A stretch of 64,000 nucleotides of DNA, taken from the NCBI GenBank assembly GCA_043228905.1, contig JBHGNT010000007.1:1302001-1366000 (forward strand), written 5' to 3'. Both the position numbers and the translations under genes were made by a program. This document shows, one piece after another, positions 5,557-52,509 of this stretch. Origin of the DNA: Azolla caroliniana (Eukaryota > Plantae > Polypodiophyta). The notes beneath the pieces are model-generated. The model ran no database searches and was not told where the DNA came from. It was given only the letters and a program-made list of their open reading frames with translations. The stretch's first letter is position 1. Each line of letters begins with the position of its first letter.

Positions 5557-6506
5557 ATTAGAAGAGAAGAGTAAGAGCAAGGGACAAAAACGATATGGAA
5601 AATGACACAAAAGATCAACGTAGAGTCGCAATAAGCAAGAGTATCTCGTTTGTATATTCTACTAAAACATCCTCTTCACAATGTTGCCATTGTGCCACAA
5701 GGCAACACATGTAGTGAAACATTAGTTTTAAAGAGTCGTGAACACTATTTAGTACATTTACATGTGCTCCCTTTGCATACTACAACAAAGACTCTTTGTC
5801 CGTTTTGCCTTTCATGTTCGATCCTAGCGTCGTGATCATCCCCGAGGTATGATGAAGGACTTTTTGTCCGTTTTGAACTCATCGAATGGCAATGCCTCTT
5901 TCTTTTTGAAATCTTTTGGGAAAAAAAAAATGCCCCTTTCTTTTCATATTGGATCCTAGCTTCATGATCTTCCTCAGCAACAGGCATATCCTCATATGCC
6001 TGGAAGAGATTCCTCTCTTTTCATTGGAAGAAAAATCAAAAGACGAAAGGAATTCAAAAGTAGTTATTTGACGGAATTGACATCCATTTTAATAATTTAG
6101 CCAAACCTAAGAAGGTCACACCATATGGTTGGGTTAAGGTGGATGAATAACTCTCCAGGATTAGTTGTATGGCCATGTGCTACCTTAAGGATGTTTGGAT
6201 CCACTTTCTTTTAGTTATTTTTATGCCCTTTGACATTAAATGTCTCAATAAGGAAGGCATTAGACATAGAAAATGTAGTAACTCTTTTCAACAAACCTAA
6301 AAAGTCTAAGAGTCATGGATAACCACCAAAACTCCCAAGAAATTTCGAAAGCTATGTGGTACCATACCATGAAGGGTCTTGCATTTGGGAGGGGCCTATA
6401 AATCGCCATTAAATCCTTTTGCCACATACATGATAAACAAAACAAGCTCGACATTTTTCCATCACTACCAAGTGTGTCCTCTAGTGAACCTAGGTTCTAA
6501 TTGAAA

Positions 6507-7178
6507 ATGGTCCGACAAGTATGTGTGCTTGTAACATTGCTCGCCACGGCATTGGTATTTACATTAACGATCAATCTTGGTGCCATGGCACAGAACAGCT
6601 GCGGGGGCAGTTGTAGCACTCTCAACGATTGTGTCGGACAACTCATTTGCACCAATGGTAAGTGTAACGATGACCCGGACATCAGCACCACTATTTGCGA
6701 GGGCAGCGGAGGAAACACCTCCGATAACGGAAACATGTGCCCTGCTATGAGCCAGAACTCAGACACGTGTTGCTCTAGCAATACATGCCAGAAGGTGTCA
6801 TGCTCGCCGCCGATTTCTTCCAGTGGAACTGCGGCCACTCTCACTCTCAACAATTTCGGGAGTGATGAAAGCGGCCCGTCAAAATGCGACGGCCAATACT
6901 ATTCGGAAAATTCATTAGTGGTGGCTCTCTCGACCAGGTGGTACAGTGGGGGAAGTCGGTGCGGGCGCAAGATTCAAATAAATGGAAATGGCCGGTCCAC
7001 ACTTGCGACCGTGGTGGACGAATGTGACTCGGAGAATGGGTGCGACGCGGAGCACGCCGGACAACCCCCTTGCGCCAACAACATCGTGGACGGCTCCTCT
7101 GCCGTTTGGGCGGCCCTTGGTGTGTCCCAGGATAGCGACATGTATGGCTTCATGGACGTGACGTGGCAAGATGCTTAG
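6507..7178 (+). CDS. KWL: Kissper-kiwellin copy 3, 223 aa from ATG 6507
   Basis: Same layout. The ORF track starts at TTG 6501; ATG 6507 aligns with the copy 2 start. Short linker and altered [11 protein letters not shown] loop. TATAAAT at 6397-6403. Confidence 0.93.
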
Positions 7179-22394: not shown

Positions 22395-22698
22395 TGTTGA
22401 GAATCAAGCTCAAGTTGGTCTAGTGTGTGAACTCACCTTGAGAGTGAATAGACACTCCAACAGTCAAGAGTCACCATTATGTCACCACTTTGTATTCTAG
22501 CATTTAGTATGAGTCATAGAATCATATTCTATGACACATAACTTATGAGCTTTCACATTCCCCATGCTCCATGAGTCTTGTAGTTAATGAAGAGAGAGGG
22601 TGACTATATAAAGCACACTCCTCCCACCTTGTATTATGTCGAGTCTTTCTCCTTTGTTAATATACTTACTTTGTGTATTCTTTGTGTCTTACTCCTCG

Positions 22699-22738
<40 letters not shown>

Positions 22739-22825
22739 ACTCTCTCTCTCTCTCTCTCTCATACACACACACACACACAATTCACTCATATTCCGCTACA
22801 CAAGAATCATACCCAATTCTTTACA
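22395..22825 (+). repeat. 5' LTR of element A (431 bp) with compound (CT)n(CA)n(CT)n(CA)n microsatellite
   Basis: TGTTGAGAATCAAGC...TTCTTTACA; TATA-like TATATAAA at ~22605. Confidence 0.95.
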
Positions 22826-25781: not shown

Positions 25782-28700
25782 TGTTGAGAGACAAGCTCAA
25801 CATCGGCCGGATCGGCTGAAGAAGCCGAGGACCGGATCGGTTAGGCCGTTAGGAAAGATATTCCGTGAGGAATATATTTGGGAGTTAGTGTAAGAGCTCT
25901 TAATGAGCCTTGAAGTACTGTAAGTACTTCAGTCAATCCTTCGAGGACTTGTATAAAAGTGTTCACTGAGCACGTCTTATGTACAGATCGAGTATTATTG
26001 TTGAATATAGTTCTTGTGTTCTCTCTCACTCTCTCTGTCTCTCCCGCGTATACTGCGTAAGCTCAAGCTCTCCATTAAACCTGAGTTTTCTTCCTTCTGT
26101 TCCGTCTTCATACCTGCTTCCGCACGCTACTTTCTACATGGTATCAGAGCGCGAGGGTTGAGAACCTCTCTGTAGCCGACACAGCTTGACGAAGAAGAAC
26201 AAGAAGAACGATGGATAGAGGCATGGCGAGCTCGCTTCCAACAGAGAAGCTCGACAGAACCAACTACGCGTCTTGGTCTTACAAGATGCACCAGTACCTG
26301 CTCGGGCACGGCTACTGGAGTTATGTCGAAGGAGCTAATGACGCGGCACCCGAATCGACACACAGAGACTTCCCGTCGTGGGAGCAATCGGCGAGCAGGG
26401 TATTGTACTGCTTCGCGTCGTGTGTGGGCGAACAACTATTGAGCTATGTTCGGGATGCAAAGACGTCGAAGGGTGCGTGGGAAAATCTAAAGAAGATTTT
26501 CGTCGCGAGCACCACAGCCAGGAAGCTTCAGCTCCGATAGGAGTTGAGCAACCTACGACAACGCGACTTGTCGGTGGCGGACTATACCTCGAAGATCAAG
26601 GATATCTGCGACTCCCTCGCCTCCATAGAGGTGAACATCGAGGAGAGCGAGATGGTCCAGATCTGTCTCGGAGGTTTGGCGTCGAAGTTCGGAGCGTTCC
26701 GAACGGCTGTGTGTACCCGGGAGAATACGTCGTCCTTTTTCGATTTACAGTCGATGCTCCTGGTAGAGGAGAACCACGCGGGTGCGTCGACGAGCATGTA
26801 CACTGACAGCAAGATGTTGTACACAGAAGGAGAAAGGCCCCGTGGTCGTGGCGGACGAGGCGAGTCGGTACGCAATGGAAGCGGCCGACGAGATCAAGGA
26901 AGAAGGCACCGAAGTGATGTCGACAGCAACTCCGGACCCTCCGGAAACAGGGGGAGTTGAAGCGATGAGAACCGGCAAGGGAAGGTCATCGCGGAGTGCT
27001 GGTACTGTGGCAAGAAAGGCCATAGGGAAAGTGAGTGCTTGAAGAAGCGCACCGATTCGGAGAGAACCGGTTACGGAAACGGCTCCGGACATATCGACAA
27101 GGGAAATCGGCAGCGATCGCACTACGTCGAAGACTCCGGGAGAGCCGGAGAAGGGTCTGCCTTCGTGACGAGACACGAAGCAAACTCAATAAAACAGAGT
27201 ACCCCGAGATCGAACGAGGTGTGGTACGTAGACTCCGACGTGTCAAACCACATGACGAGCCATAAGGAGTGGTTCTCGTACCTTGAAAAACCGATACAAC
27301 CTGGAGTAGTCGCAAATGGAGACGACACTCCGCATCCGATCACGAATGTCAGAGAAGTTCCCCTTAGCCATGTTGGGTAGAAAGGGAAACTCATGAATGT
27401 GTTGCACGTTCCGACAATCACGAAAAACTTGGTCTCGGTCGGACAGATTGTCGACCAAGGGATGGAGGTTCGGTTTACACACCTCGGGTGCTTCATTGAG
27501 GAAGAAGGCCGTGTGATTGCGCAAGGGCGCAGAGACGGGAGGATGTTCATCCTCGACTCCACTGACGGCGGCACCGCAATGTTCGCAAAGGGAAGAAAAA
27601 CCGAGTCGGACATCGACTTGTGGCATAAGCGGATAGGCCACGTCAACTACCAGCGGCTTCAAGATCTGCAAACGAAACAGGTAGTATTCAGATTGCCCAA
27701 ATTTAGTGGCCGAAAGGCACAAATTTGTGAAGCCTGCCAGCTTGGGAAGCAACACCGACTTCCTTTCCCAAACGAGCGAATCCGGAGCCGGAATAAGCTC
27801 GATCTTATACACTCCGATGTATGGGGGCCGACACAAAACGTTAGTCTTGGCGGGAGCCGATATTTCGTCTCCTTCATCGACGACCACACGCAGCACACGT
27901 GGATCTACCTCATTGAGAGGAAGAGCGAAGTTTTCGACTGTTTCCGGGACCTCAAAGGGTTCGTGGAAACGGAAACGGGACGTAAGATCCAATGCTTGTG
28001 GTCGGATGGCGGGAAAGAGTACTTTTCTGGTCAATTCAACGGTTATCTACAACAAATGGGAATTCGGCACGAATTCAGTTGTAGATACATGCCGGAGCAG
28101 AACGACGTGATCGAGAGGAAGAATCGGTCGATTGTGGAAGCGGCACGGGCAATGCTGGAGAAGAAGAGCTTGCCCAAGTTCTACTGGGCCGAGGCGGTAA
28201 GGACTGCGGTATACATCTAGAACCGGATCGGAGACAAAGTGTCGGTGCACAAGCTATATTTCGGAACGAAGCCGAACTTGCGACACTTGAGGGTGTTCGG
28301 TAGCATTGCGTATGTGCATGTACCGAAGGAGAAAAGGAGGAAGCTGGACACAAAGGCCGAGAAATGCATCTTGGTCGGTTACTCGGACGAGCAGAAGGGT
28401 TATAAGTGCTATAACCCTCGCACCAAACAAGCGCATGTCAGCCGCGACGTTGTGTTCGACGAGTCCGCGTCCTGGTACCAGCCCCCGACTCCGAACCCCG
28501 ACTCCAATCCGAGCTCTGACGATGAGGTCAGAGAGGCCGAGATGCCTCCGGATGAGCCCGAAATCGAGACCCGCGACGAGAGTCCGATTTCACTCCGTTT
28601 AAGTGGACCGAGTGGACCGATTGGACGACTGAGCTGGTACGACCAATCCGATGAAGAGCCGGCGAGTAGTGGAGACTCGGCCGTGCATTCCCCGCGCAGG

Positions 28701-31405
28701 AAGCCGAGGAGACGGCTTACGCGCAAAGAGAAAGGGAAGAAGAAGGTGTCGGATTCCGGCACGGATAGGAACGAGTCAGACCGACGCGAGTCCGACTCCG
28801 AGGGAACCGGTGACGGGTCTTTAAAGATGAAGACCGCGTCGACCGAGAAGGCCTCGACATCGGCTAATGTGAGATTACGTCGATCTACCCGCCAGAAGAA
28901 TCCTGTTGTGCGGTTCGGATACAACGAGTACATGGCGCATCATTATGCGTACATGACCCGTGTAGCGGAAGTGCGTGAGCCGGAGAGCTACGCGGAAGCG
29001 ACTAAAGACGTGAATTGGCGTGCCGCGATGGAGGAAGAGATGCACGCATTGGCGGAGAACGAGACCTGGGACTTGGTTGACGCACCAAGAGGGGTAAAAC
29101 CAATCGGGTGTAGGTGGGTGTACAAAGTCAATTACAACACCAATGGCTCGGTCAACCGGTACAAGGCTCGGCTAGTGGCAAAGGGCTACGCGCAGAAACA
29201 CGACATCGACTACGATGAGACATTTGCGCCGGTCGTGAAAATGACGACCGTCTGTGTTTTACTCGTAGTAGCCGCGGCCAAGGGGTGACACCTACATCAA
29301 ATGGATGTAAAGAATGTGTTCCTGCAAGGTGACCTTGAGGAACAAGTGTACATGGTACAGCCCCCCGGATTTCACTCCGGACCGAACTCCTCGGTAGTAT
29401 GCCGACTGAAGAAGTCCCTTTACGGACTGAAGTAAGCCCCGCGTGCCTGGAACGCGAAGATCACGCAACAACTGTGTCGGATGGGCTTCGTCACGTCAAA
29501 ATCAGACTCTTCCCTGCTCATCCGGAAAGGTCGACTCGGACCGGTTAGTATTCTTCTATATGTCGATGACTTGGTCATCACCGGCGCCAACCTAGGCGAA
29601 ATCGACCGCGTGAATCTCCAGCTTGCGGCATCGTTCGACATGAAGGATCTGGGGGACCTTCATTACTTCCTCGGGATCGAAGTGATCCGTACCCCCGAAG
29701 GCATATTGATCAGCCAACGTCACTACGTGCTGAGTATGCTCTTCAAATTCTGGATGGCCGACTGTAAGTCCGTCTCGACTCCTCTGGACAGAATCGTCAA
29801 GCTTCGTCCCGACACGGGAAAGGTATGCGACCCGATGAGGTTCCGACAAATTGTCAGAAGCCTCATATACTTGACCATCACCCGACCCGACCTCAGTTAT
29901 CCGGTCGGAGTGATCAGTTAGTTCATGGCGCGACCTACCGAGGAACACCTTCAGTGTGCGCAACGCATACTTCGGTATGTCAATGACACTAAGGACCGGG
30001 GACTGCTATATCGGACCGGTGCAGCCGTGCAGTTAGTCGGCTACACCGATGCTGATTGGGCTGGCAACGCCGCCGATCGACGATCCACGTCTGGATACGC
30101 GTTCTCCCTCGGGAGTGCCGCGGTCGCGTGGAGTAGTAAGAAGCAGCTGATAGTTGCACTGTCGAGCACGGAAGCTGAGTACCGAGGAGCGGCTGTCGCG
30201 ACATGCGAATCCATATGGTTGAAGCGGCTACTTAAGGACCTGCAAGAGGAGGTGTCAGATCCGACGATGATCTACTGCGACAACCTCAGCAGCATCCAGC
30301 TCGCGAAAAACCCTGTTTTCCACGCACGGACTAAGCACATTGAGGTGCACTACCATTTCGTCCGTGAGCGTGTCCTTTCCGGTGAAGTCAAACTTCAATA
30401 CGTGCCGATGGATCGGCAAATTGCCAACATCTTCACCAAGCCTCTTGGTCTGGACAAGTTGCGGCAATTCTCAGGTGCGCTCGGATTGCGTCACCTCGAC
30501 GTGCCAAACTTGAGGGGGAGAACGGACCCGAACGACCAAGCAAGGCAACAGGAAAGGAGCGGAGACCGCGACACCGAGTCGGTTGTCGAGTTCGGCCTCG
30601 CATCAGCTGAAGAAGCCGAGGGCGGACCCGCGGAAAAGTTCGGAAGAGGACAGAAGGGGAGCAGCCGAAGGAGAGAGCCGAAGCCAACCACGCATGGGGA
30701 AGATGACGCCATCGAGGGCGAGAAGACCGAAGACGAGTTGGAGACAGCCAACTCGGACGAGAGCGAAGACCGATCGGAGGTAGCCGAGTCGGTTCAGATG
30801 TTTGATTCAGACACGTTGAATCAACCGAGGCCCAAGCGGAAGAAAAGGCAGCAGGAGAAGCGTCAACACCGCAACAATAGAAGAGCTGATAAGGGCCACA
30901 TGAGCAGACAAGCCGACCGGAAGGGTCGAAGCGTGCGGAGTCGACCAGGTCGAGGAGCGTGAGCGAGGCGTGAAGCCAGGAGGAACCGGTGCTGTGAAGA
31001 TCCCGAAGAGCCTCAAGTTGAGCTTGAGGTGGAGTGTTGAGAGACAAGCTCAACATCGGCCGGATCGGCTAAAGAAGGCGAGGACCGGATCGGTTGGGAC
31101 CGATCGGTTAGGCCGTTAGGAAAGATATTCCGTGAGGAATATATTTGGGAGTTAGTGTAGAAGCTCTTAATGAGCCTTGAAGTACTGTCAGTACTTCAGT
31201 CAGTCCTTCGAGGACTTGTATAAAAGTGTTCACTGAGCACGTCTTATGTACAGATTGAGTATTATTGTTGAATATAGTTCTTGTGTTCTCTCTCACTCTC
31301 TCTGTCTCTCCCGCGTATACTGCGTAAGCTCAAGCTCTCCATTAAACCTGAGTTTTCTTCCTTCTGTTCCGTCTTCATACCTGCTTCCGCACGCTACTTT
31401 CTACA
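25782..31405 (+). mobile_element. Ty1/Copia LTR retrotransposon B, nested in the IN-RT linker of A; related lineage; several nonsense mutations
   Basis: LTRs 25782-26138 and 31035-31405; TSD GAAAC/GAAAA (one mismatch); PBS TGGTATCAGAGC 26139-26150; gag ATG 26211. CWYCGKKGHRESEC knuckle, WYVDSD protease, LWHKRIGH..CEAC, HSDVWGP, LLYVDDL, YTDADWAG, HARTKHIEVHYHF. Confidence 0.95.
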
Positions 31406-33197
31406 GAAAAATTTTCCGAACCAGCCAAGGATCCGCGATGGATCGAAGCCATGAACGAGGAGATGCAGGCACTACACAAGAACAAGACATGGGATCTTGT
31501 TCCCACCTCACCACACAAAAAGGCGATCGGATGTAGATGGATTTACAAAGTGAAGTACAACACCGACGGTTCCATCAACCGCTACAAAAGCGCGACTCGT
31601 CGCGAAAGGCTACGCCCAAACGCACGGAGTTGACTACGAGGAGACCTTTGCCCCTTGGCAAAGATGACGACGGTACAAACCGTAATTGTGCTTGTCGTGG
31701 CGAAAGGGTGGCACCTCCATCAAATGGACGTCAAGAACACCTTTCTACAAGGCGAATTAGAAGAGGAGGTGTACATGATACAACCAGTTGGCTTCAACTT
31801 GAGCACCCATCTGAAAGCAATATGCTAACTCAACAAGCCACTCTACGGCCTCAAGCAAGCACCGCGTGCTTGGCATTTGAAGATAATGCAATATCTTCAT
31901 CAAATCAGCTTCCGTATGTCAAAATCAGACAACTCCCTCTACATACGAAGTGATTCCGCAAGTCCGATTGTCATCATCTTATATGTGGATGACCTAGTCA
32001 TTGGAGGTGAGCATCTCGTCGAAATCAATAAGGTCAATTCCCTCCTTTCCGACAAGTTCGAGATGACGAACATGAAGGAGCTCCACTACTACCTCGGCAT
32101 CGAGGTAAGTCGGACTCTGGCCGGAATCATGATCTCTCAACGGCACTACATCCTCAACTTGTTATACAAGTTCGGTATGGCTGAGTGCAAATCCACGGCA
32201 ACCCCGCTCGATGTCAATCTCAAACTAGATGCGAACTCAAGCACCAAAGCGTGTGAGCCGACTCAGTATCGGCAACTCATCAGGAGTCTCATCTACCTCA
32301 CGATCACACGACCCAATCTCAGTTATCCAGTCAGTCTCCTTAGCCAATTCATGCAAACACTGCGTGATACTCACTTGGATTGCACTAAGTGAGTTCTACG
32401 ATACGTGAGCGGCACAATGGATTGCGGCATCCTCTACAAGACTGCGATGCTAATACGACTCGAGGGGTACACAGACGCCGATTGGGCCGGCTACAAAGTC
32501 AATAGAAGATCAACCTCCGGATTTGTTTTTTCCCTCGGCAGCGGAGCAATATCCTGGAGCAGCAAAAAGGAACCAATCGTCGCTCTTTCGAGCATAGAGG
32601 CGGAATACAGGGGCGCGACAGTGGCCGCATGTGAAGCCGTATGGCTCAAAAGGATACTCAAGGATCTGGGTGTACCCATCAAGGGTTCTACTTCCCTTTA
32701 CTGCAACAACATGAGCAGTATCTATCTGGCTTGGAACCCAGTGTTCCAAGCACGGACAAAGCACATCGAAGTGCACTATCACTTCATCCGAGAGTGCGTT
32801 CTAGTTGCCGATGTCGACCTACAACACATTAGCACCAATCTTCAAACGGCCAACATCTTCACTAAAGCCTTAGGAGCTGACAAGCTATGGCAATTCATGA
32901 ACGATCTCGGATTGACGATCCCTGACCTGCCAAGCTTGAGGGGGAGTATTGAAGACGCTACGCAATAATGCGTGGATTCCGCAACCGCGCAACGAAGCCG
33001 CGAAGAGCCGATCTACCGCGCAAAGCCGTGTAGAAAGTCACAAGCCGAAGCACAGACTTCACAACTACGCACAACGCAAGCTGGAGCACGGATTCCGCAA
33101 CTCCGCATAAATGCGAGTCGATGCGGACTCCGGAACGCGAGTCGAAATGGATTTCGGATACCGTCTGAAACCGACCCGACTTGAGCTTGAGGGGGCG

Positions 33198-33501
33198 TGT
33201 TGAGAATCAAGCTCAAGTTGGTCTAGTGTGTGAACTCACCTTGAGAGTGAATAGACACTCCAACAGTCAAGAGTCACCATTATGTCATTACTTTGTATTC
33301 TAGCATTTAGTATAAGTCATAGAATCATATTCTATGACACATAACTTATGAGCTTTCACATTCCCCATGCTCCATGAGTCTTGTAGTTAATGAAGAGAGA
33401 GGGTGACTATATAAAGCACCCTCCTCCCACCTTGTATTATGTTGAGTCGTTCTCCTTTGTTAATATACTTTACTTTGCGTATTCTCTGTGTCTTACTCCT
33501 C

Positions 33502-33579
<78 letters not shown>

Positions 33580-33623
33580 TCACACCTATTTCGCTACACA
33601 AGAATCATACCCGATTCTTTACA
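33198..33623 (+). repeat. 3' LTR of element A (426 bp)
   Basis: Matches 22395-22825 with roughly a dozen substitutions and a differently arranged microsatellite. Confidence 0.95.
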
Positions 33624-33866
33624 AGCTCTATAGGCGCAAAAATTTGAATCTATAATGTGTGATACAAGCATCAAATATTGGATGTACATCCACAATCAAC
33701 CTTTGTGGAGTCTATTGAAAGATCGATAGGCAAAAATTGAAAGGTTTGACATGGTACTTTGCATGCATGCCATGTGGGTGGCATCTAAATTAAATGCAAA
33801 ATATATTTTGAGAGGTATATATAGACTCTCAAGTGTTGTAATGTTAACATGTATATGAGATATCAT

Positions 33867-33944
33867 TGTGGAATGTAGGGGTTAAACTCATGACCTCCTA
33901 GTCTCCATTAAGCAACCTTACCAACTGAGCTACATCCATTTGGG
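33867..33944 (-). mobile_element. Single tRNA-derived SINE-like unit, homolog of the 46.3-46.7 kb triplet
   Basis: Reverse complement CCCAAATGGATGTAGCTCAGTTGGTAAGGTTGCTTAATGGAGACTAGGAGGTCATGAGTTTAACCCCTACATTCCACA aligns end to end with the triplet units. A box intact, B box decayed. Confidence 0.8.
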
Positions 33945-36481
33945 TACCTTTATATAAAATTCCTCTTGATGTATTGTATTTGAGCACTAGAACTTTCTAT
34001 GCATCGTCATGCATTCTCTACAAGTTTCTAGCTTGCATGCATCCTCATACATTCCCTAGGATATTCTTAGTTTGCATGTATACCCCCACCTTCTTATATA
34101 AATACTTGGGTGCACCTTGATTCTAAACAAGGTGAACAACACCAGTTATGAAAGCATAATATTGTGTTCTTGTTATCTTTCTCTTGTCTCTCTTAGTATT
34201 TAGTCTTGTCTTGGTTCTACTCTATTCTACTTGTCTGTGAGATCAAGACAATTGGGGATGGGGTGGGGGTGGGGTTAGTCAATAAGGTTCAAGAAGAGCT
34301 AAAACTTTACTATTGTAAGTTTTATTTGAGGTTTTGAATATTGAGAGTTAGGGTTTCACCACTCTATATTGTATTTATATAGCTATTAATAATCTAAGCA
34401 ATCTCTTGATTTTCCAACATAATCTATCTATCCATTTCTCAAATTCCATTATCTTTCGCGCTATCAATTCCACTCAAATCTATCTATTTTACTTTCTTTC
34501 ACACTCTCTATATCGCTTCTCCTTATTCATAGTCAAATTGGTTCCAACACACTAATCACGAACTTTACAACACGGGCATATACTTTTGTAATCTAGTTGC
34601 TTTACCTTTGTAAATACCTGTTGGGAAATCGGTCCATCCGAATGGGATCTGGTGATGAATGAAGAGGACCCGGTGAGAACAAGAAGAGAGCCGGTGAGAA
34701 CCGGAAGAGAGACCTATCTATAAATATGTTTCTTGAGTAAGCCTATTGAGGCTATATTTGTAGATAGCCCTAAGTTCATATAAGCATAAATATGACTTAC
34801 GGCAATCACTTTATATATATGTTGTAGGAGTTATTGTTGTATAGTGAGAGCAACAGAGAGGTAGAGAGAGATACAGAGCGATACTCTGTTGTAACCACTG
34901 CCTGGCGAAGATACAGAGCTCGATGTCGTTACCTACGAGTCTCTGATTGTACCCCTTCTCTTCATAGTGATAGTTCGGAGTTTGTGGGCTCCCGTGGTTT
35001 TTCCCTATTAGGGTTTTCCACGTAAACATCTTGTGTTCACTTTTTTTTAGTTCCCATTTTTGTGTTCTCCATTCTCATCGAAGTGTTCAAGACTCGGTTG
35101 TGGCCGAGCAATATTCCACACTAATTCTCAACAAACTAGTATCAGAGTGAACAACACAGAAAATGGAAGAATCGTTCGGCGGCATGTTCAAGCTCACCGG
35201 CTCCAACTACTTAGTGTGGAAGTCGAAGATGAGGGATATGTTGGTGGTCAAAGATCTTTGGTTGCCGGTTCAGTTCGGGGACATGAAGACAACGACATAC
35301 ATCCGGTGCTTCATCGACATGAGCCTGTACAACAACTTCAATGAAGAAAGTAAGGCTCATGAAATCTGGGAGAAGATAGGCATTATGTTTTTGAACAAAA
35401 ATGTTGTTAATCGGGTTTCGGTATTTCGGAAGCTAGTAAGACTCCGGTACCAAGATGGCTCCAGTATGGCGGAGCACATGAATGCCTTCCAGGGACTGAC
35501 ACATCAGGCAACCTTGTTGGAAGTATCTCTCGCCGATGAGGTACTTGCTCTACTCCTGCTCGGTTCCCTTCGGATAGTTGGGAGACGTTAGTTGTCATGT
35601 TGGGCAACGCCGGGCTGGAAGGAAAACAACTATCCCTAACAAGAGTCAAGTCGAGCTTGCTAGATGAGGAGGTGTGTCGGAAAGACAAGGAGGTGATCTC
35701 GGACGCCAAAGCCCTCCTTACTGATTCGGAACGCGGAAGACAAAGGAATCAGAGTCCTCAGAACCGGGAAAAGTCGGGGACACGGTCAAAGTCAAGGGGG
35801 AGGCCCACTTGCTTCTATTTCGGCAAGCCAAGGCACTTCTAGAAGAACTGTCGGCATTTTCAGAAAGACAAGGGAATTGAAAGTACCGATTCGAAGAAGT
35901 CACTGGACCGAAACGGTTCGTATCGGTGAGGCCAAGACCGGAAGGGAATGACGGTGATCGCGGCAAGTGAAGAAGAACTAATGCTCATCACCGAGGAGAG
36001 TGAGTTGAACCTTGCCGGCGACGAGACAACGTGGGTTGTCGATTCCGGAGCGTCGTTCCACCTTACCCCGAACTGGAAATGCTTCTCATCCTACACAACC
36101 GGTGAGCACGACTGTGTCCGGATGGGGAATGAAGGAACATGTTGAATTGTCGGCATAGGAGATGTGTGGTTGACGACACCAACCGGATGCAAATTGCTGC
36201 TGAAGGATGTCCGACACGTTCCGGAGGTTCGACTGAAGCTGATATCAGCCGGTCGGTTAGATGATGAAGGCTATACAAGTAGCATCCGGAATGGTGTCAT
36301 GAAGTTCTGCAAAGGGAGCCTAATAGTGGCTCGAGACCGGAAGGTCAACAATATGTACCTGATGAATGCCCGGATATGCCAGGAAGAAGTGAACGTAGCA
36401 TCCGACAATACCGGTGAGCTGTGGCACAAAAGACTGTGTCATATGAGTGAGAAGGGGATGAAGAGGCTAGCCGAAGGCAAC

Positions 36482-39400
36482 TGTCGAATACAAGTGTATA
36501 ATGGACGTATTCACACTATCCCTTTGTATAGCTCAAGTTTGGGCCATTTGTGTAATTAGCATAAATGGTAGTTGCCCTAAGTTGGTCACTATATAAAGTG
36601 ACCTAGTAACCTTTTTGTAAGGTTGGTTGTATTATTGTTTTATGGAATAGAAAGACTCTTTGTGCCTCTCTCTCTCTCTCTCTCTCTCTATCTCTGTCGC
36701 ACACGATCTTGGAAACTCTCATACGCAGGTATTCTACACGAATCGAATGCTACTTGATCTTCCGTAAAGACGGCCTTGTCTCCAACATCTGGTATCAGAG
36801 CTTGCACAGTATTCGGTCCCTCAACCCGCTGTCGGCCGTCATCTCAGCCTGCACAGCATTCGGTTTCTTGCGTCATTCGAAGAAGAGAGAAGAAGAAGAA
36901 AAAAAACGAGGCTTGCATCTCATCGCGTTAGATCATCTTCGCTTGGAGTAAGCCAGCCGGTTGTACTCTGTTCCTTGTGATCGTAACCGCTCGAGGTGAA
37001 ATCCCCTTGTGCAACATTGACACGATCGTGCTCCACTCGGTTAAACGGCATCCGAAGAGGTCATCAAACGCTGCTCGCCGCTCATTGTAACCACTCGGTG
37101 CAGATCGGTCTCAAGACAACAACCCCAAATTCGTGCTTCATCCGGCTGATCGACATTCGGGAGGATCAGTTGGATCCGTCTCTCTCGTCGCTGCAGTCAC
37201 CCGAAGCAGAATCGGTCCAGACAATCGGTTTCAATAATCGGTATTTGGCATATATATTCGGAAGCGAACCGGGCTCACTCCGACTCGGCAACATTCGGGA
37301 AGACCAGTCGGTTCTGTCCCTCAAGTTACTGGAGTCAATTCGAGCAAGTTCAACAATACATATATCCGAAGCCGAACCGACTCGGGTTCAAATCCGACTA
37401 GAACGATATCGGGTGAGCCAACCGGCTGCACTCCAACAAGGTTCGTAGTCAACTCCGAACCGAGCTTCGTCAACCGAAACCAAATTTGATGGCATCAACA
37501 TCCGGCTCGTCAGAAATGAGTCTACGAAAGTTCGATGGATCGAACTTCAACTTCTGGAAGGAGCAAATGCAGGACTATCTCATAGTCAAGGGGCAAATCG
37601 ATCCCATCGAAAATGAAGAACCTCCAGAAGGATACAAACCAATTGAGTGGCAGAAGCTGGACAGAATCGTCTGCGCCACGATTCGGATGCACCTATCGGA
37701 ATCGGTATACTTTACGGTGCAATCGTGTACGACAACATTCGAACTGTGGAAAACACTGTCGGACACCTACGAAAAGAAGGTCGCTGCAACAAAGATGTTT
37801 CTGATCCGGCGCCTCTACAACTTGCGGATGAAAGAATCAGATTCGGTCCAAGCACATCTCAATGAGTACGAAAGCATAAGCTCCCAAATCTCATCTCAGG
37901 GGACGGCAATCGAGGATGAACTCAGAGCAATGATACTCATGAGCAGCCTTCCCTCATCATGGGAAACTTTCGTCACAACCGTGTGCAACGCGTCAACCAC
38001 GGCTGTTAAATACTCCGAAGTCACGAGCGCAATCCTGACCGAAGCAGCTCGGAGAAAGTCTTTCGCCAAAGACTCAACAGACGACGCTTATGTAGTACAA
38101 GGTTCGACAGACCGATCGAACATACGAGGAAGAGATTCCTCACGGCAGCCGAACCATCAGCGAAGACGGAGCCAGTCACGGGATAATCGAATCTGCAACT
38201 ATTGCAAGAAACCCGGACACATCAAAGCCGACTGCCGCGCACTCAAGAACAAGAACGACAAGTCTCAGAAATCAGACAAGAAGAGTGGCCGGCATGAGGA
38301 GATCAATTACGTCAGCTTCTCAGCTGATGTGCTACCAAACGACCCGAATATACTATCAATCGAAAATCCAGTCGGATCAAAAGTTCTGCTCACGACTGAA
38401 GAATCGAGCACATGGCTCTTAGATTCGGGCGCATCATTTCACGTGACTCCTCATCGATCCCAATTTCGGCAATATACGATCCGTCACTCCGACTCAGTTC
38501 GAGTCGGCAACTCGCAACACTGTGACATCATTGGAATCGGCACAGTAGAGCTCAACCTTGCAGGTGGCTCTACACTTGTACTTCACAATGTCCGACATGT
38601 ACCCGAGCTCTCAAGGCCATTGATCTCAGTCGGACAACTAGATGAAGACGGCATTCGTGCCGGTTTTTCTTCGGGAGGGTGGACACTCCACAGGGGGAAC
38701 CTCCTGCTTGCTAGAGGACCCAAGATACACTCACTGTATCCGTTACATGTTACGCTCAGAGAGGGTAACCTGTTTTTGGTGGATATTCCTGTGTCATCAC
38801 TATGGCACAGAAGATTAGGACACCTCAGCAAGGCCGACATCACGCACCTATCTAGAGCCGGATACATCCCTAAACTCTCCTTCTCGGACCATCAATTCTG
38901 CGAACATTGCCAGTATGGCAAACAAGCAGCCGCATCACACCCGACATCAGCACCAAGAGAAACGAGACCTCTCGATTTAGTCCACTCGGACGTCTGTGGC
39001 CCAATGCCGCATCAGTCTCTCGGCGGTGCCTCTTACTTCGTCAGTTTTATTGACGATTCGACTCGAAAGGTGTGGGCTTATCCAATTCGCACCAAAGATC
39101 GTGTCTTCTCGATCTTCTCCGATTGGCTCGCTATGGTAGAAAATCAAACTGACCGAAAACTAAAATGCTTTCGGACCGACAATGGGGGAGAGTTCAAATC
39201 AGAAGAATTCGTCAAATTCTGCCGACAACGCGGCATCCGACGTGAATTTACGGCACCACACAGTCCGGAGCAAAACGGGATTGCCGAACACATGAATCGG
39301 ACAATCCAAGAACGGATAGTTTCCATGCTCCAACACTCCAGACTGTCGGATGGCTTCTGGGCAGAGGCTCTACTCACGGCAGTACAGATAATCAATATGT

Positions 39401-42017
39401 CGCCAAGCAGACCTCTAGGACTTCAAATTCCTCAGGAACTATGGATCGGCAGTAAGCCGAATTACGACAAGCTGAGGATCTTCGGATGCGAGGCGTACGC
39501 CCTTATTCCGAAAGATGCTCGCCGAAAACTTGCACCTCGGTCCAGGAAATGCATTTTCCTTGGATATGGATCGGACGGCGAAATGGGATACCGACTCTTG
39601 GACCCCGAACGCAGACAAATCGTTCGAAGTTCGGACGTTGTGTTCAACGAGTCGGCTATGACTCCATCAGTCGAAACACCGATCGAAGTCCGAAGGGTAA
39701 CATTTTCCGATGTGCCGACCCTTCAAGAAGGCCCCGCTCTTAACACACGGTCAGCTTCACGGGTAGGTGAACCTTACACTACCGACTCGGACAACTCTGA
39801 CTCGGCACAGCAGAATAATTCGCTTTCGGACCATCCGACCTCGATACCCGATGCGACCAGTCCAATCATACCTCGACGATCCGAGAGACTGTCGCAACCT
39901 CCGGAGAGGTATTCTCCTGGAATTTTCTTCACCGACGCCGGCGAACCAACGTCTTACGAAGAAGCATCGACATCTGTCGATTCCGCCACCTGGCATCTGG
40001 CGATGGAGTCGGAAATGCACTCCATTCGGGCAAACAAGACTTGGGATCTGGTCGAATTACCTAAGAATCGACGTGCTCTTCCTTGCAAGTGGGTTTATCG
40101 ACTAAAAGAGACGTCTGATTCGACCACCCCAAAGTACAAGGCTAGATTAGTTGCGAAGGGCTTCCGACAAGAATATGGCGTCGACTTCGGCGAGATTTTT
40201 TCACCAGTGGTGAAAATGACAACCCTTCGTTTTCTACTCGGCGTAGTGGCAGCCGACAACTTGGAGCTGATTCAGCTAGATGTCAAAACAGCCTTCCTCC
40301 ATGGTGATCTTGAAGAGGAAATTTATATGGAGCAGCCAAAAGGCTTCGTGGCAACTGGCCAAGAACATCTAGTCTGCCGACTCAGGAAGAGTCTATACGG
40401 CCTCAAACAGGCACCGCGACAATGGTACAAGAAGTTCGACGACTTCATCCAATCGATCGGCTTCTCAAAAAGCGATGAGGACCATTGTCTTTTTACCAAC
40501 ACAGCTCAAGATGGATCACCCATCTTCCTCATCATTTACGTGGACGACATGCTAATTTCCGGACGCCACGCGGGCGAACTTGCCGATCTCATTCGGCAAC
40601 TGCGGTTGAAGTTTGCCATGAAGGACCTCGGTCCGGCACGACACATACTTGGCATGAAGATTAGTCGGCATCGCGATAAACGACATCTTTTTTTGTCTCA
40701 GACCGACTATATCGGACGTGTCTTGGAACGCTTCAACATGCAATCAGCCAAATCTGCTTCAACCCCGCTCCCCATGAATCTTCGGCTCTCTCAGCGAGAC
40801 TGCCCGACATCCGGTCCGGAGGGGGAAGATATGAAATCGGTACCGTATGCACCGGCAGTCGGCTCCCTTATGTACCTGATGGTCGCGACACGGCCTGATA
40901 TTTCTCATGCCGTAGGAGTCGTTAGCAGATTTATGCACAATCCTGGCCGATCGCATTGGAACGCAGTCAAGCATGTGTTCAAATATCTGGCTGGCACAAA
41001 AGACCACGGCATTCTTTTCGGTCCGAACTCAACCTCAGGCGTAGTCGGTTACACCGACTCGGACTTCGCCGACTGTATAGACAGTCGGAAATCAACAACT
41101 GGATACTGCTTCAAATTCGGCAATGGAGCAATTTCGTGGAAGTCGAAACTTCAGGAGTGCACAGCGACCTCAACGACCGAAGCAGAATATGTAGCTGCGT
41201 CCGACGCTGCAAAAGAAGCTTTATGGCTCGGCCGGCTGGCGCACACGTTTCGACAAGTCGACCATGACTCGGCCCCAGTTGTCTACAACGACAGTCAAGG
41301 TGCTGTTGCCTTGTCGAAAAATCCGGTTCACCACAACGCCTCCAAACATATCGACGTTCGATATCACTTCTTTCGGGACTGCGTCATTTCAGGGAAAATC
41401 GGTCTAGAGAAAATATCCACAACCGACAATGTCGCAGATGGGATGACCAAGTGTCTTTCGGCAGACCGCTTTCGGTCCCTTCGGCATCAGATGGGCGTAA
41501 CGACAAACCAGTCCGGTTAGAGCCGGACACAGCGCAGGATGGTTTCAGACAACCGACATCAGTTCCTTAATGATCGGCTTCAACTCTTCCGACCTGACCA
41601 GTCCGGTCTTCTGCCTTCGGACCCTGCCGACTCGAACAAAACTGATATGTCCGAGAACCTAGGTTTATACCTGTAATCTTAGATAACCCATGGATACGCC
41701 CATTACGGGGGAGTGTCGAATACAAGTGTATAATGGACGTATTCACACTATCCCTTTGTATAGCTCAAGTTTGGGCCATTTGTGTAATTAGCATAAATGG
41801 TAGTTGCCCTAAGTCGGTCACTATATAAAGTGACCTAGTAACCTTTTTGTAAGGTTGGTTGTATTATTGTTTTATGGAATAGAAAGACTCTTTGTGCCTC
41901 TCTCTCTCTCTCTCTCTCTATCTCTGTCGCACACGATCTTGGAAACTCTCATACGCAGGTATTCTACACGAATCGAATGCTACTTGATCTTCCGTAAAGA
42001 CGGCCTTGTCTCCAACA
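36482..42017 (+). mobile_element. Ty1/Copia LTR retrotransposon D, intact and very recent, nested in the GAG-pre-integrase region of C
   Basis: LTRs 36482-36787 and 41714-42017 differ by one visible substitution and one CT unit; TSD GCAAC (36477-36481, 42018-42022); PBS TGGTATCAGAGC 36790-36801; PPT GGGGGAG 41707-41713; one uninterrupted ORF. Confidence 0.97.
37489..41520 (+). CDS. Gag-Pol polyprotein of element D (Gag, Zn knuckle, protease, integrase, RT, RNase H), 1343 aa
   Basis: CNYCKKPGHIKADC; WLLDSGASFH; LWHRRLGH..CEHC; integrase HSD/RTDNGGE/NGIAE; RT QLDVKTAFLHG, LYGLKQAPRQW, IYVDDML; RNase H YTDSDFA, STTEAEY, KHIDVRYHF. Copia domain order. Confidence 0.97.
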   Translation: MASTSGSSEMSLRKFDGSNFNFWKEQMQDYLIVKGQIDPIENEEPPEGYKPIEWQKLDRIVCATIRMHLSESVYFTVQSCTTTFELWKTLSDTYEKKVAATKMFLIRRLYNLRMKESDSVQAHLNEYESISSQISSQGTAIEDELRAMILMSSLPSSWETFVTTVCNASTTAVKYSEVTSAILTEAARRKSFAKDSTDDAYVVQGSTDRSNIRGRDSSRQPNHQRRRSQSRDNRICNYCKKPGHIKADCRALKNKNDKSQKSDKKSGRHEEINYVSFSADVLPNDPNILSIENPVGSKVLLTTEESSTWLLDSGASFHVTPHRSQFRQYTIRHSDSVRVGNSQHCDIIGIGTVELNLAGGSTLVLHNVRHVPELSRPLISVGQLDEDGIRAGFSSGGWTLHRGNLLLARGPKIHSLYPLHVTLREGNLFLVDIPVSSLWHRRLGHLSKADITHLSRAGYIPKLSFSDHQFCEHCQYGKQAAASHPTSAPRETRPLDLVHSDVCGPMPHQSLGGASYFVSFIDDSTRKVWAYPIRTKDRVFSIFSDWLAMVENQTDRKLKCFRTDNGGEFKSEEFVKFCRQRGIRREFTAPHSPEQNGIAEHMNRTIQERIVSMLQHSRLSDGFWAEALLTAVQIINMSPSRPLGLQIPQELWIGSKPNYDKLRIFGCEAYALIPKDARRKLAPRSRKCIFLGYGSDGEMGYRLLDPERRQIVRSSDVVFNESAMTPSVETPIEVRRVTFSDVPTLQEGPALNTRSASRVGEPYTTDSDNSDSAQQNNSLSDHPTSIPDATSPIIPRRSERLSQPPERYSPGIFFTDAGEPTSYEEASTSVDSATWHLAMESEMHSIRANKTWDLVELPKNRRALPCKWVYRLKETSDSTTPKYKARLVAKGFRQEYGVDFGEIFSPVVKMTTLRFLLGVVAADNLELIQLDVKTAFLHGDLEEEIYMEQPKGFVATGQEHLVCRLRKSLYGLKQAPRQWYKKFDDFIQSIGFSKSDEDHCLFTNTAQDGSPIFLIIYVDDMLISGRHAGELADLIRQLRLKFAMKDLGPARHILGMKISRHRDKRHLFLSQTDYIGRVLERFNMQSAKSASTPLPMNLRLSQRDCPTSGPEGEDMKSVPYAPAVGSLMYLMVATRPDISHAVGVVSRFMHNPGRSHWNAVKHVFKYLAGTKDHGILFGPNSTSGVVGYTDSDFADCIDSRKSTTGYCFKFGNGAISWKSKLQECTATSTTEAEYVAASDAAKEALWLGRLAHTFRQVDHDSAPVVYNDSQGAVALSKNPVHHNASKHIDVRYHFFRDCVISGKIGLEKISTTDNVADGMTKCLSADRFRSLRHQMGVTTNQSG

Positions 42018-45000
42018 GCAACCTCATTCCGATGAAGGATGTGCAACTTGAGAAGTGCACCGATTGCTTGGACGGAAAGCAAAACCAAACCTCCTTTCGG
42101 TCAAGACCACCGATGAGATGGAATGCACCACAGGAGTTGGTGCATACCGATGTGTGTCAAGTGGACACGAAGACACATGCCGGATCGCAGTACTTTGTGA
42201 CGTTCATAGATGCCGGAAGTTGTGGGTCTCACCATTGAAGACGAAGGATCAGGTGCTATCCATCTTCCAGGAGCTCCACGCGAGAGTGGAAAGAGAAACC
42301 GGGCGGAAGCTGAAGACGGTTCGAGCAGATAACGGAGGAGAATCTCGGGGGTAGTTTGAGGAGTACTATTGGTCGAAGGGAATTCGGCTCGAGTTTACTG
42401 TGCCGAAGACGCCGGAACTAAACGGGCTGGCCGAAAGGATGAACTGGACCATAATGAAGAGAGTCTGGAGCATTCTCGCACATGCCAAGTTACCCAAGAC
42501 GTTTTGGGTTGAGGCGTTGTCAACGGCGACCTATGTGATAAAAGATCACCCTCAGTACCCTTGGACGGAGACACACCTCAGAAGGTATGGACCGATAAAG
42601 ATGTTTCTTACCGGCATCTGAAGGTGTTCGGGTGTCTCGCATACATGCATGTGGCAAAGGACAAGAGAGCAAAGCTGGATCCGAAGTCCAAGTCATGTAT
42701 ATTCCTTGGATATGGCGATGATGAGTTCGGTTACCGGGTGTGGGATCTGGTCGACAAGAAGGTGTTCCGGAGTCGGGACATAGTCTTCATGGAAGACAAG
42801 ACCATTGCCGACTGGGAGTCGAAGAAGGTGATGAACTCCGGATCATTCATCGAAAACCGACTTGAGGACACAAGGGCATACCCGGTTGAAAACCGGACGC
42901 TAGACGGTAACCAGATGACACTCGACGAACCGGCTGGATACGGACAGGAAACCGAACGGACCGAAGAAGAAGAAGAAGAAGACACTGAAACCAGACAAGA
43001 TCCTGAATCGAATTCGGATGAGGAACAAACAGAGGAACCGGTAGTCAGAAACTAGGGACGGAGATATCCTCTCCGAGAAAGAAGAGCCCCCCGGAGATTT
43101 CCGGATGCAAAGCATGTGTTGCTAACCGATGAGGGGAACTCGGAAAGCTTCGAAGAAGCGAAGAGAGTGCCATGCAGGATGAGATGGAGTCCTTGCATGA
43201 GAACCACATATGAACTGATGGAGTTGCCGGAAGGGAAGAGAGCACTCCGGAACAAGTGGGTGTACAAGTTGAAACCGGGAGATGTCGGAAATACACCCAA
43301 GTATAAGGCCCGAATCATGGTGAAGGGCTTCCAGCAGAAGAAAGGAGTGGACTTCGATGAGATCTTTGGCCCGGTAGTAAAGATGACATCCATCTGGACG
43401 GTATTGGGCATAGCGGCAAGCATGGACCTCGAGGTAGAGCAACTGGACGTGAAGACGACATTCCTCCATGGTGACCATGAAGAGAAGATCTACATGCATC
43501 AACCGGAAGGATTTGAGAAGAAAGGGAAGGAGCACCTTGTGTGCTGGCTGAAGAAGAGCTTATACAGACTGAAGTAAGCTCCCCGACATTGGTACCGGAA
43601 GTTCGACTCCTTCATGACCGACCAAGGGTACCACAAGACACAGGCCGATCACTGCGTGTTTGTGAAGAAATTTGATGGAGGAGACTTCCTGATACTCCTC
43701 TTATATGTGGATGATATGTTGATCGTCAGACGAGACCAAGGCAAGATTCGGATGCTGAAGAAGGCTTTGAACCGGACCTTCTCAATGAAAGACTTGGGTC
43801 CGGCAAGACAAATATTGGGAATGCACATCATCCGGGACCGGTCAAAGAAGCTATTGTGGCTGTCACAGGAAAAGTACGTGACGAAGGTGCTTCATCGGTT
43901 CAACATGTCGGATGCGGAAATGGTCGGATCGACACTTCCGGTAAACTGCAAGTTATCCAGAAAGCAGAGCCCGAGGACAAAGGCAGAGAAGGCGGATATG
44001 ATGAAAATACCATATGTCTCTGCCGTCAGGAGCTTGATGTACGCAATGGTGTGTACCCGACCGGATATCAGATATACAGTCGGAGTGGTGAGCCGGTTCA
44101 TGAGCAATCCCGGAAGAGAGCATTGGAACGCGGTCAAGTGGATACTCTGGTATTTGAAAGGTACCTCGAGTATGTGCCTCCGATTCGGCTCCAGTAAACC
44201 CCAACTCGACGGATTCACGAATTCGGACATGTCGACTGATGCGGATACCAGCCGTTCTACATCCGGTTATGTCATGACTTATGTAGGGAGAGCTGTTTCG
44301 GAGCAGTCGAGGCTGCAGAAGACGGTTGCATTGTCAACCACGTAAGCGGAGTACATGGCAGTTGTGGAAGCCGACAAGGAGATAATCTAGATGAAGGACT
44401 TCATCGGAGAGCTAGGGATCCAACAGGAGGAATACCGGCTCTACTGCGACAATCAAAGTGCCATCCACCTTGCAAAGAACGCGGCCTACAATTCCCGGAC
44501 GAAACATATCCAACGGAGGTACCACTAGATCTGGGAAAGAGTAGAAGATCAAGAGTTCGTGCTGACAAAGATCCACATGAAGGAGAACGGGTCGGACATG
44601 CTGACCAAGGTGCTGACAACTGACAAGCTGGAGGCATGCCGAAAGCGGATCAAGCTGACAAGACATCCTACGCCGGAGTGAAGGGGAAGATTGTTGGGAA
44701 ATCAGTCCCTCCGGATGGGATCTGGTGATGAATGAAGAGGACCCGGTGAGAACAAGAAGAGAGACATATCTGTAAATATGTTTCTTAAGCCTATTGAGGC
44801 TATATTTGTAAATAGCCCTAAGTTCATATAAGTATAAATATGACTTAGGGCAATCACCTTATATATATGTTGTAGGAGTTGTTATATTGTTGTATAGTGA
44901 GAATGACAGAGAGGTAGAAAGAATACAGAGCGATACTTTGTTGTAACCGCCGCCTGGCGAAGATACAGAGCTTGAGGTCGTTGCCTATGAGTCTCTGATT

Positions 45001-46268
45001 GTACCCCTTCTCTTCATAGTGATAGTTCGGAGTTTGTGGGCTCCCGTGGTTTTTCCCTATTAGGGTTTTCCACGTAAACATCTTGTGTTCATTTTTTTTA
45101 GTTCCCATTTCTGTGTTCTCCATTCTCATCGAAGTGTTCAAGACTTGGTTGTGGCCGAGCAATATTCCACACTAATTCTCAACAATACCTTATACCACAC
45201 CTATTAGAAAATAGTTTTTCATTAGTGAAATGATTTAGTTGATGCAATCTTCCAAACTAATTCAATAAGAACAACCTCCCAAGATTAGGGCATATAACAA
45301 GAATCTTGATAACGTTGAAACGTCAATGGCTCGCCCCTTTAAAATGTTGGAATATCACTTAAAAACATCATTGGTTGGGATATCTCAAGGAGGATTCTTA
45401 CCGCTAGGAAGATGCCTTAAAACCATGTCCACCTCATCTATCGTGAAATTTGCATCTAATTCATGACGAAGGGGGATGTGCACAATACATCCAACCCATC
45501 ATAATATTTTTGGTATGTTCTAATTACCTCATTACTTATGTATAATTATGGTCCAAGCAACTCCATACGTGCTAGAATTAGGTTTAGTAAATTCATTCAT
45601 TGATTTCCCTTACTCTGAAGCTACAATTTTGAAATAGGGCATCTTTGTAACATGTTTGGATAATGTTCTTTCATCCATAACCACCACAATATTGGACATT
45701 CCAAAATCTCTCCCAAACCCTTCATTAGGGACCTCCATAGACAAAGGTGCATGATGTTAGGATTCAACCATAAAGTGGCCCATTCACTGCATCCAAAGGA
45801 ATGACCCACTAATGTCTCCTAAGTTTATTAAAACAAAGTCATTTCATACAAATTGTAATCACATGCATCCATCATGTATTCATATAACAAAGTGCTTTGT
45901 TGGCTGGCCAATGGTAAGAACATAAGTACAATCACTCTCATTAGTACAATTTTATCGTTTAATTGATAACGTTCTCGTGATTAGGTGAGCTTGTTCACTC
46001 TAGTAGCATGTTGACATTGGTTGGCACCCTCTCTAACCCATATTACCAATTATGGAGTGTTCGCCCACAAGATCCCCATAGCCATGAGTCAACGAGGTAT
46101 ATTCTCCTAGAATGCTTGGTAAGTAAGAATTACCATTTTACTTGTCTTTTGGTGTTCATGCCAAGGACTCGATGTTAATGGGGTGGAGGGTGGAACCTAG
46201 AATGGCTCCACCCCCCTCCCAAGGGGGTTGAGAGAGAGAGAGAGAATGGCTCTACCCCCCTCTCAAGG

Positions 46269-46319
<51 letters not shown>

Positions 46320-46323
<4 letters not shown>

Positions 46324-46678
46324 ATATGGATGTAACTCAGTTGGTAAGGTTTCCCAGTGGAGACCAGGTGGTCATGGGTTCAACCCCTACATTCCACAGT
46401 GGCATCTAGTGAATTAAGAGATATGTATAGAGAGAGAGCCCAAATCGATGTAGCTCAGTTGGTAAGGTTGCCCAGTGGAGACCAGGTGGTCATGGGTTCA
46501 ACCCCTACATTCCACAGTGGCATCTAGTGAATTAAGAGATATGTATGGAGAGAGAGAGAGAGAGAGCCCAAATCGATGTAGCTCAGTTGGTAAGGTTGCC
46601 CAATGGAGACCAGGTGGTCATGGGTTCAACCCCTACATTCCACAGTTGCATCTAGTGAATTAAGAGATATGTATGGAG
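46320..46678 (+). repeat. Head-to-tail triplet of tRNA(Ala)-like SINE units separated by (GA)n; units start at 46320, 46438, 46566
   Basis: Each unit: GCCCA.AT.GATGTAGCTCAGTTGGTAAGG (A box)...GGTCATGGGTTCAACCCC (B box) TACATTCCACA GTGGCATCTAGTGAATTAAGAGATATGTAT(G)GAGAG. The ends resemble plant tRNA-Ala (GGATGTAGCTCAG.TGGTA...CCCC.CATCTCCA), but the cloverleaf is imperfect. Confidence 0.85.

Positions 46679-48078: not shown

Positions 48079-52509
<4,431 letters not shown>

What the first reader, a model, noticed from the sequence alone, without database searches (positions are those of the whole stretch)
31017..44721. All four Copia elements have an inverted repeat that puts the PPT and 3'-LTR start in a hairpin loop
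Seen in sequence, for each element. A: CCGACTTGAGCTTGA (33176-33190) pairs with TCAAGCTCAAGTTGG (33207-33221), 15 bp with one G.U, loop GGGGGCG|TGTTGAGAA. B: GTTGAGCTTG (31017-31026) with CAAGCTCAAC (31045-31054), 10 bp perfect, loop AGGTGGAG|TGTTGAGAGA. D: TGGATACGCCCATTA (41691-41705) with TAATGGACGTATTCA (41731-41745), 15 bp with one G.U and one mismatch. C: ATCCTAcgCCGGAG (44665-44678) with CTCCGGaTGGGAT (44709-44721), imperfect ~12 bp. A and B share the TTGAGCTTG/CAAGCTCAA core but the next pair flips (C-G versus G-C), which looks like compensatory change. C and D use unrelated stem sequences. One arm is internal and the other is in U3, so the hairpin can form only at the 3' end of the genomic RNA or minus-strand DNA. 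Inference: a conserved structure that presents or protects the PPT for RNase H cleavage and plus-strand priming, or defines the U3 att end. I do not recall this described as a general feature of plant Copia elements, but cannot exclude prior reports.
Basis: partly seen in the sequence, partly recalled or inferred. Interest (0 to 1): 0.8.

Follow-up and report, generated by a model that had tools for sequence, protein, structure and literature searches.

The report
Known Copia hairpin around second-strand primer
Four jumping genes (Copia retrotransposons) here carry a short inverted repeat around the site where second-strand DNA synthesis starts; it is real and was already described in 2010, and it likely works as a hairpin in the first DNA strand that helps set up that priming step.

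Summary
The feature is in print: Bousios et al. 2010 (PMC2829016) found this inverted repeat around the PPT/3'LTR junction in 18 of 21 Sireviruses and 14 of 30 classic Copia, and proposed the same role. It exceeds chance: 22 of 47 Copia families from metagenome contigs have a stem abutting the PPT, against 6.8% of arm swaps. Real compensatory pairs occur in other subfamilies. Beyond the 2010 paper: (1) the repeat follows lineage, missing in 21 of 22 members of one clade and present in 30 of the other 34 rows; (2) the stem is predicted in 14 of 32 families on genomic RNA but 25-28 of 32 on the minus strand, which hints that it acts on minus-strand DNA. Function is untested. Earlier notes of this scan hold related Ty3/gypsy hairpins on other DNA, not this one.

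The parts
22395..22825 (+). Element A 5' LTR
   Evidence: self-alignment; TSD AGCTC/AGCTC, LTRs 95.9% identical, Met-tRNA-type PBS directly after
25782..26138 (+). Element B 5' LTR (B is nested in A)
   Evidence: TSD GAAAC/GAAAA, LTRs 98.0%
30513..30520 (+). B: second, upstream PPT octamer at the end of RNase H, in frame in the LRG codons, with no partner arm
   Evidence: IR score 5
31017..31026 (+). B left arm (linker), abuts the PPT
31027..31034 (+). B PPT (the T at 31030 is G in 28 of 29 other copies)
31035..31405 (+). B 3' LTR
31045..31054 (+). B right arm (U3, +11)
32939..32946 (+). A: second, upstream PPT octamer at the end of RNase H (LRG codons), with no partner arm
   Evidence: IR score 5
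33176..33190 (+). A left arm (linker), abuts the PPT
33190..33197 (+). A PPT (first base shared with the arm)
33198..33623 (+). A 3' LTR
33207..33221 (+). A right arm (U3, +10); G at 33217 is private to this copy and stands in both its LTRs
34619..35133 (+). Element C 5' LTR
   Evidence: TSD ATACC on both sides read, LTRs 95.5%
36482..36787 (+). Element D 5' LTR (D is nested in C)
   Evidence: TSD GCAAC/GCAAC, LTRs 99.7%
37417..41520 (+). D gag-pol frame, 1367 codons, Copia domain order
41691..41705 (+). D left arm (linker), abuts the PPT
41706..41713 (+). D PPT
41714..42017 (+). D 3' LTR
41731..41745 (+). D right arm (U3, +18)
44665..44681 (+). C left arm; it is also the last codons and stop of pol, and ends at the PPT
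44682..44691 (+). C PPT octamer plus AT spacer
44692..45184 (+). C 3' LTR
44706..44721 (+). C right arm (U3, +15)

Best explanation
This is the known Copia PPT-flanking inverted repeat (Bousios 2010), a lineage-conserved pairing that likely acts during reverse transcription as a hairpin in the minus-strand DNA that supports plus-strand priming. Shown: arms flank PPT plus LTR start; the left arm ends at the PPT 5' edge; pairing, not sequence, is kept across lineages. Inferred: after RNase H removes the flanking RNA, the two minus-DNA arms pair while the 8-nt PPT RNA stays annealed in the loop. The stem would push off RNA upstream of the PPT, fixing the primer's 5' end, and would stack on the short hybrid so RT holds a longer duplex. 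It would unzip as the primer is extended. It would also mark the terminal PPT against upstream copies.
For: Position lock: left arm ends at -6 to -12 and right arm starts at +8 or later in all 21 anchored metagenome families listed; anchored stems in 22 of 47 families against 6.8% of swaps (p 7e-14). Compensatory pairs: G-C to A-U in 8 of 62 C-like junctions (columns 15/58); C-G to U-A in 3 and G-C in 1 of 15 A/B-clade rows, 6 double-sided cells, 1 of 500 shuffles. Predicted arm-arm helix of 5 bp or more in a 200-nt context: 14 of 32 on plus RNA, 21 plus DNA, 27 minus RNA, 25 minus DNA, 28 minus DNA with the PPT positions blocked; the effect is strand, not chemistry, and holds at three window sizes. 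Stem mismatches read on the plus strand: 17 A.C against 9 G.T in 33 stems, the opposite of an RNA wobble bias. Upstream PPT copies in A and B lack a partner arm. PMC3616985 (passage) argues that RNA structure is unlikely to modulate PPT priming because the PPT acts in a hybrid.
Against: No experiment. The A.C excess is not significant (p 0.17 two-sided; 0.08 one-sided against the swap null of 0.50), and some single-copy mismatches are later decay (L190's A.C is private). The folding advantage of the minus strand follows from its C-rich loop competing less; it shows where the stem forms more easily, not what selection acted on, and stems were picked by Watson-Crick matches only. Within-family constraint is not significant (shared/private variants 5/31 in arms against 108/351 in flanks, p 0.22). 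Covariation in the L169-type family is not significant (47 of 500 shuffles). Much's double-sided count comes from a register shift between families. One large clade does without the repeat, so it is not essential to Copia priming.
Confidence: 0.4

Rival explanations
1. The stem acts in the genomic RNA: it keeps the PPT in a loop, or pauses RT, so that RNase H cuts precisely (the model of Bousios 2010 and of the first reader); packaging or dimer roles would be variants.
For: Proposed in PMC2829016 and PMC3601003 (with the RSV U5-IR stem as analogue). RNA stems are stronger in isolation (-5 to -33 kcal/mol). 14 of 32 families fold it on the RNA, 21 of 32 if the PPT is held open.
Against: Predicted mean PPT unpairing on RNA is 0.40 in 21 families; only A folds so in 80-nt windows; no G.U preference; the hairpin cannot exist once the RNA is copied into a hybrid.
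Confidence: 0.27
2. The repeat is a by-product: fold-back or template switching near the PPT copies one arm onto the other, with no function.
For: The private base in window copy A turns a C.C mismatch into a pair and stands in both LTRs, as templated correction would give. Within-family constraint is not significant.
Against: Mismatches persist in whole families (D 29 of 29 other copies, A 29 of 29); strict position; lineage structure (5 changes against 18.7 shuffled); absent in the 2 Ty3/gypsy elements scored. One base is an anecdote.
Confidence: 0.15
3. The right arm is kept as a sequence signal (integrase end recognition or a promoter box) and the left arm as pol/PPT sequence; pairing is incidental.
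For: In C and L209 the left arm is coding; the arm core of A and B is kept in sequence across distant families.
Against: Unrelated stem sequences in different lineages, each self-complementary; arm swaps reach score 10 in only 3.5% against 16 of 47 observed; double-sided changes.
Confidence: 0.08

Closest known systems
PPT/3'LTR-junction inverted repeat of Sireviruses and classic Ty1/copia (Bousios et al. 2010, PMC2829016)
   Same: Left arm borders the PPT, right arm inside U3 (mean +18 in classic elements; here +10, +11, +15, +18), loop holds PPT, spacer and LTR start, short imperfect arms, left arm may be coding, upstream PPT copies lack it, same proposed role. Read: parts 1-5 of 7 of the text, supplements 1 and 2.
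   Different: Nothing in anatomy. The paper's text as read has no shuffle, swap, covariation or strand test and does not tie absence to a clade. Host here is likely a fern; none of the hosts in its Table S1 is a fern. A and B have a second PPT octamer, whereas the paper reports one PPT in all classic elements.
PPT-in-loop 3' stem of LTR retroelements as reviewed by Benachenhou et al. 2013 (PMC3601003)
   Same: [quoted passage not shown]
   Different: The HIV source paper was not held. SHAPE passages on SIV/HIV and Ty3 put the G-rich PPT in paired regions, not in a loop.
Rous sarcoma virus U5-IR stem at the PBS end
   Same: Pairing between an LTR end and adjacent internal sequence around a primer site (analogy drawn in PMC3601003; title seen in its reference list).
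   Different: 5' end, RNA, minus-strand initiation.
Small minus-strand DNA hairpin controlling plus-strand priming in duck hepatitis B virus
   Same: Recalled from memory: a DNA hairpin beside the plus-strand primer site.
   Different: Different virus order and primer; search did not return the primary paper, so this is a lead only.

Membership tests
Ty1/copia LTR retrotransposon | TG..CA LTRs with 5-bp TSD, PBS and PPT | tested here: met
   (B's TSD has one mismatch; C's PBS has one change)
Ty1/copia LTR retrotransposon | gag-PR-IN-RT-RH order with RVT_2 | tested here: met
Bousios PPT-flanking inverted repeat | Left arm borders the 5' edge of the terminal PPT | tested here: met
   A -7, B -8, D -8, C -10
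Bousios PPT-flanking inverted repeat | Right arm a short way inside the 3' LTR; loop = PPT, spacer, LTR start | tested here: met
   +10, +11, +15, +18
Bousios PPT-flanking inverted repeat | Short arms of high complementarity (classic: mean 19 bp, 88.6%) | tested here: met
   10-17 nt arms; window copy of C not significant alone (p 0.10)
Bousios PPT-flanking inverted repeat | Upstream PPT copies lack the repeat | tested here: met
   score 5 at both upstream copies
Bousios PPT-flanking inverted repeat | Forms a stem-loop that aids RNase H cleavage (proposed, not shown, in the paper) | not testable with these tools
   only folding predictions
Sirevirus | Large element (about 10.5 kb), LTR about 1.3 kb, long linker | tested here: not met
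   elements about 5-5.7 kb without nested inserts, LTRs 304-515 bp
Sirevirus | 3-5 PPT octamers in the linker | tested here: not met
   one upstream octamer in A and B, none in C and D
Sirevirus | CA/ATTGG-PBS 5' junction and octamer-AT/TG 3' junction | tested here: not met
   5' junctions differ in all four; only the C family has the AT/TG 3' junction
Ale/Retrofit lineage (for the clade lacking the repeat) | Clusters with named Ale references | tested here: inconclusive
   no named reference in the tree; one search gave no lineage names; one search found no paper. The name is from memory, prompted by Hopscotch, Retrofit, AtRE1/2 and Evelknievel lacking the repeat in the paper's lists

The most novel reading that the evidence does not exclude
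The Copia PPT-flanking repeat is a minus-strand DNA clamp, not an RNA hairpin: it stacks on the very short (8-nt) PPT hybrid to build the plus-strand initiation complex, is ancestral across most Copia lineages from ferns to flowering plants, and was dropped in one large clade that must define its primer another way.
Probability: 0.3. Interest if true: 0.55.

Novelty: new member of a known kind. Interest (0 to 1): 0.25.

Why it matters
The feature itself is known, so the finding is ordinary. What remains useful: a 2010 proposal with no test found in print (searches, listings only, open-access library) now has statistical support, a clade that lacks it as a natural control, and a strand prediction that short model substrates can test. 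If the DNA-clamp reading holds, it would explain how an 8-nt PPT primes accurately, and the repeat can help annotate the PPT and LTR start in most Copia lineages.

Tried and rejected
Sirevirus identity: rejected. Viral contig scans gave nothing usable. The RVT_2 genome search returned almost only B-related copies, so a PBS-pattern sample was used instead. Within-family selection test not significant. Wobble-strand test not significant. Covariation in the L169-type family not significant. Lineage naming by homology search failed. The HIV paper cited for a PPT loop was not held; the hepadnavirus hairpin paper was not found. PMC9324142 and PMC5445492 (passages) proved irrelevant; PMC3185511 passages say nothing on a flanking hairpin. 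Only 20 of 60 further planned Ale-type loci were obtained, so subfamily sampling of the A/B clade is thin. No tRNA gene in the window.
Full report
Observation. The eight arms read exactly as reported. Self-alignment and Pfam define four Copia elements: A (LTRs 22395-22825, 33198-33623), B nested in A (25782-26138, 31035-31405), C (34619-35133, 44692-45184) and D nested in C (36482-36787, 41714-42017), with LTR identities of 95.9, 98.0, 95.5 and 99.7%. The best named relatives of the window's phospholipase D gene are fern proteins, apart from one barley-labelled entry, so the host is likely a fern. With a Watson-Crick-only arm score and 300 dinucleotide shuffles, A, B and D are significant (p 0.003, 0.02, 0.017) and C is not (p 0.10). 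The 5'LTR flanks score 4-7.

Family copies. C's relatives have a better stem than the window copy, reaching the PPT edge. In C and in family L209 the left arm is the end of the pol frame.

Prior art. Bousios et al. 2010 (PMC2829016; read parts 1-5 of 7 of the text and supplements 1-2, of which one page is a picture) describe 'a precisely positioned inverted repeat' around the PPT/3'LTR junction in all but 3 of 21 Sireviruses and in 14 of 30 classic Copia (Tnt1, BARE-1, RIRE1, Copia, Osser and others). [quoted passage not shown] Benachenhou et al. 2013 (PMC3601003, passages) repeat this and ask for a systematic search. I found no experimental test in searches (listings only; subscription journals mostly absent).

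Generality in this genome. The first 100 of 13,439 PBS matches were fetched; 63 had a matching 3' LTR within 8.8 kb. I scored the four window copies and one copy each of ten other Copia junction types: 10 of 14 reach p at most 0.05, with unrelated stem sequences; C, L195, L210 and L238 do not (p 0.07-0.12). Two Ty3/gypsy-type elements score 5 and 6.

Generality elsewhere. A metagenome scan gave 80 Copia loci. 51 allowed a junction call (45 by a rule blind to the repeat, 6 by the 5' LTR) and 47 remained after clustering; a few calls may be off, such as L378. 16 of 47 score 10 or more against 3.5% of arm swaps; 22 of 47 have a stem of score 8 or more ending at the PPT edge against 6.8% of swaps (p 7e-14). 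This matches the paper's 'almost half'. On an RT/RNase H tree of 56 rows (47 metagenome, 9 own-genome rows labelled positive by hand, L210 among them though it misses the anchor rule; A and C dropped for short peptides), the label needs 5 changes against 18.7 when shuffled. One clade (support 100/98) has 21 of 22 rows without the repeat, and its one positive (L351, right arm at +36, p 0.15) is probably chance; 30 of the other 34 rows have it. From memory that clade looks like Ale/Retrofit, and the paper's lists lack the repeat for Hopscotch, Retrofit, AtRE1, AtRE2 and Evelknievel, but I could not test the name.

Covariation. In 62 C-like junctions 86.6% of cells pair against 80.1% shuffled; the clean change is G-C to A-U in 8 copies, while an abundant young subfamily carries A.C at that pair; much of the remaining double-sided count is a register shift. 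In 15 A/B-clade rows there are 6 double-sided cells (1 of 500 shuffles). In 11 L169-type rows the signal is not significant. These shuffles ignore relatedness. Shared against private variants in arms and flanks do not differ significantly (p 0.22). Selection on pairing is therefore supported across lineages and only weakly within families.

Mechanism. Which strand? Predicted arm-arm helices of at least 5 bp in 200 nt: 14 of 32 families on plus RNA, 21 plus DNA, 27 minus RNA, 25 minus DNA, 28 minus DNA with the PPT positions blocked as if the primer were bound (same trend at 120 and 300 nt). The G-rich PPT pairs elsewhere on the plus strand (mean unpaired 0.40 in 21 families). Stem mismatches are 17 A.C to 9 G.T on the plus strand, which would be wobble pairs on the minus strand, but this is not significant and includes decay. 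Established reverse-transcription biology adds that the PPT primes as an RNA/DNA hybrid; PMC3616985 (passage) draws the same doubt about RNA structure, and SHAPE passages place HIV, SIV and Ty3 PPTs in paired RNA. I infer a minus-DNA hairpin with the short primer in its loop: left arm flush with the primer's 5' end, right arm at +8 or later so the loop can span the hybrid (integrase end needs would explain that offset too). A and B carry a second PPT octamer at the end of RNase H with no partner arm, so the stem could mark the terminal one. All of this is inference; confidence 0.4.

Verdict. Real, more than chance, already described; these are new members in a likely fern genome. The lineage pattern and strand hint are modest additions. 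Interest 0.25.

Noticed in passing
window 32939-32946 and 30513-30520: A and B each keep a second PPT octamer in the last codons of RNase H (LRG motif), 260 and 520 nt upstream of the LTR; Bousios 2010 reports a single PPT in classic Copia. It may be the old junction left after a linker was gained.
   Followed up: partly
window 31060-31107, 25807-25840: B's U3 holds repeated CCGGATCGG-type palindromic boxes, like the Sirevirus RM boxes that the paper calls absent from classic elements.
   Followed up: no
window 29922-30962: B's pol frame runs about 150 codons past RNase H into a charged, low-complexity tail with no Pfam match.
   Followed up: no
window 33217 and 22414: A private base in both LTRs of A turns a family C.C mismatch into a pair; possible templated correction, single case.
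   Followed up: partly
window 1197-7178: Three tandem copies of a small secreted-type protein gene; the first matches Kiwellin-1 (PF24300).
   Followed up: partly
window 9072-11554 (-): Phospholipase D alpha gene; best named relatives are ferns.
   Followed up: partly
window 46311-46678 and 33858-33944: Three tandem copies of a ~120-nt unit with tRNA-like A and B boxes after a GA microsatellite, and one inverted copy at 33858; likely a tRNA-derived SINE; ARAGORN finds no tRNA.
   Followed up: partly
window 48365-52101 (-): LINE-type endonuclease plus RVT_1 frames.
   Followed up: no
L343, L357 (metagenome): LTRs appear to start with TA rather than TG, by 5'/3' LTR alignment.
   Followed up: no
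L345, L376 (metagenome): Left arms match those printed for Art1 and Tpv2 in the paper's Figure S3.
   Followed up: no
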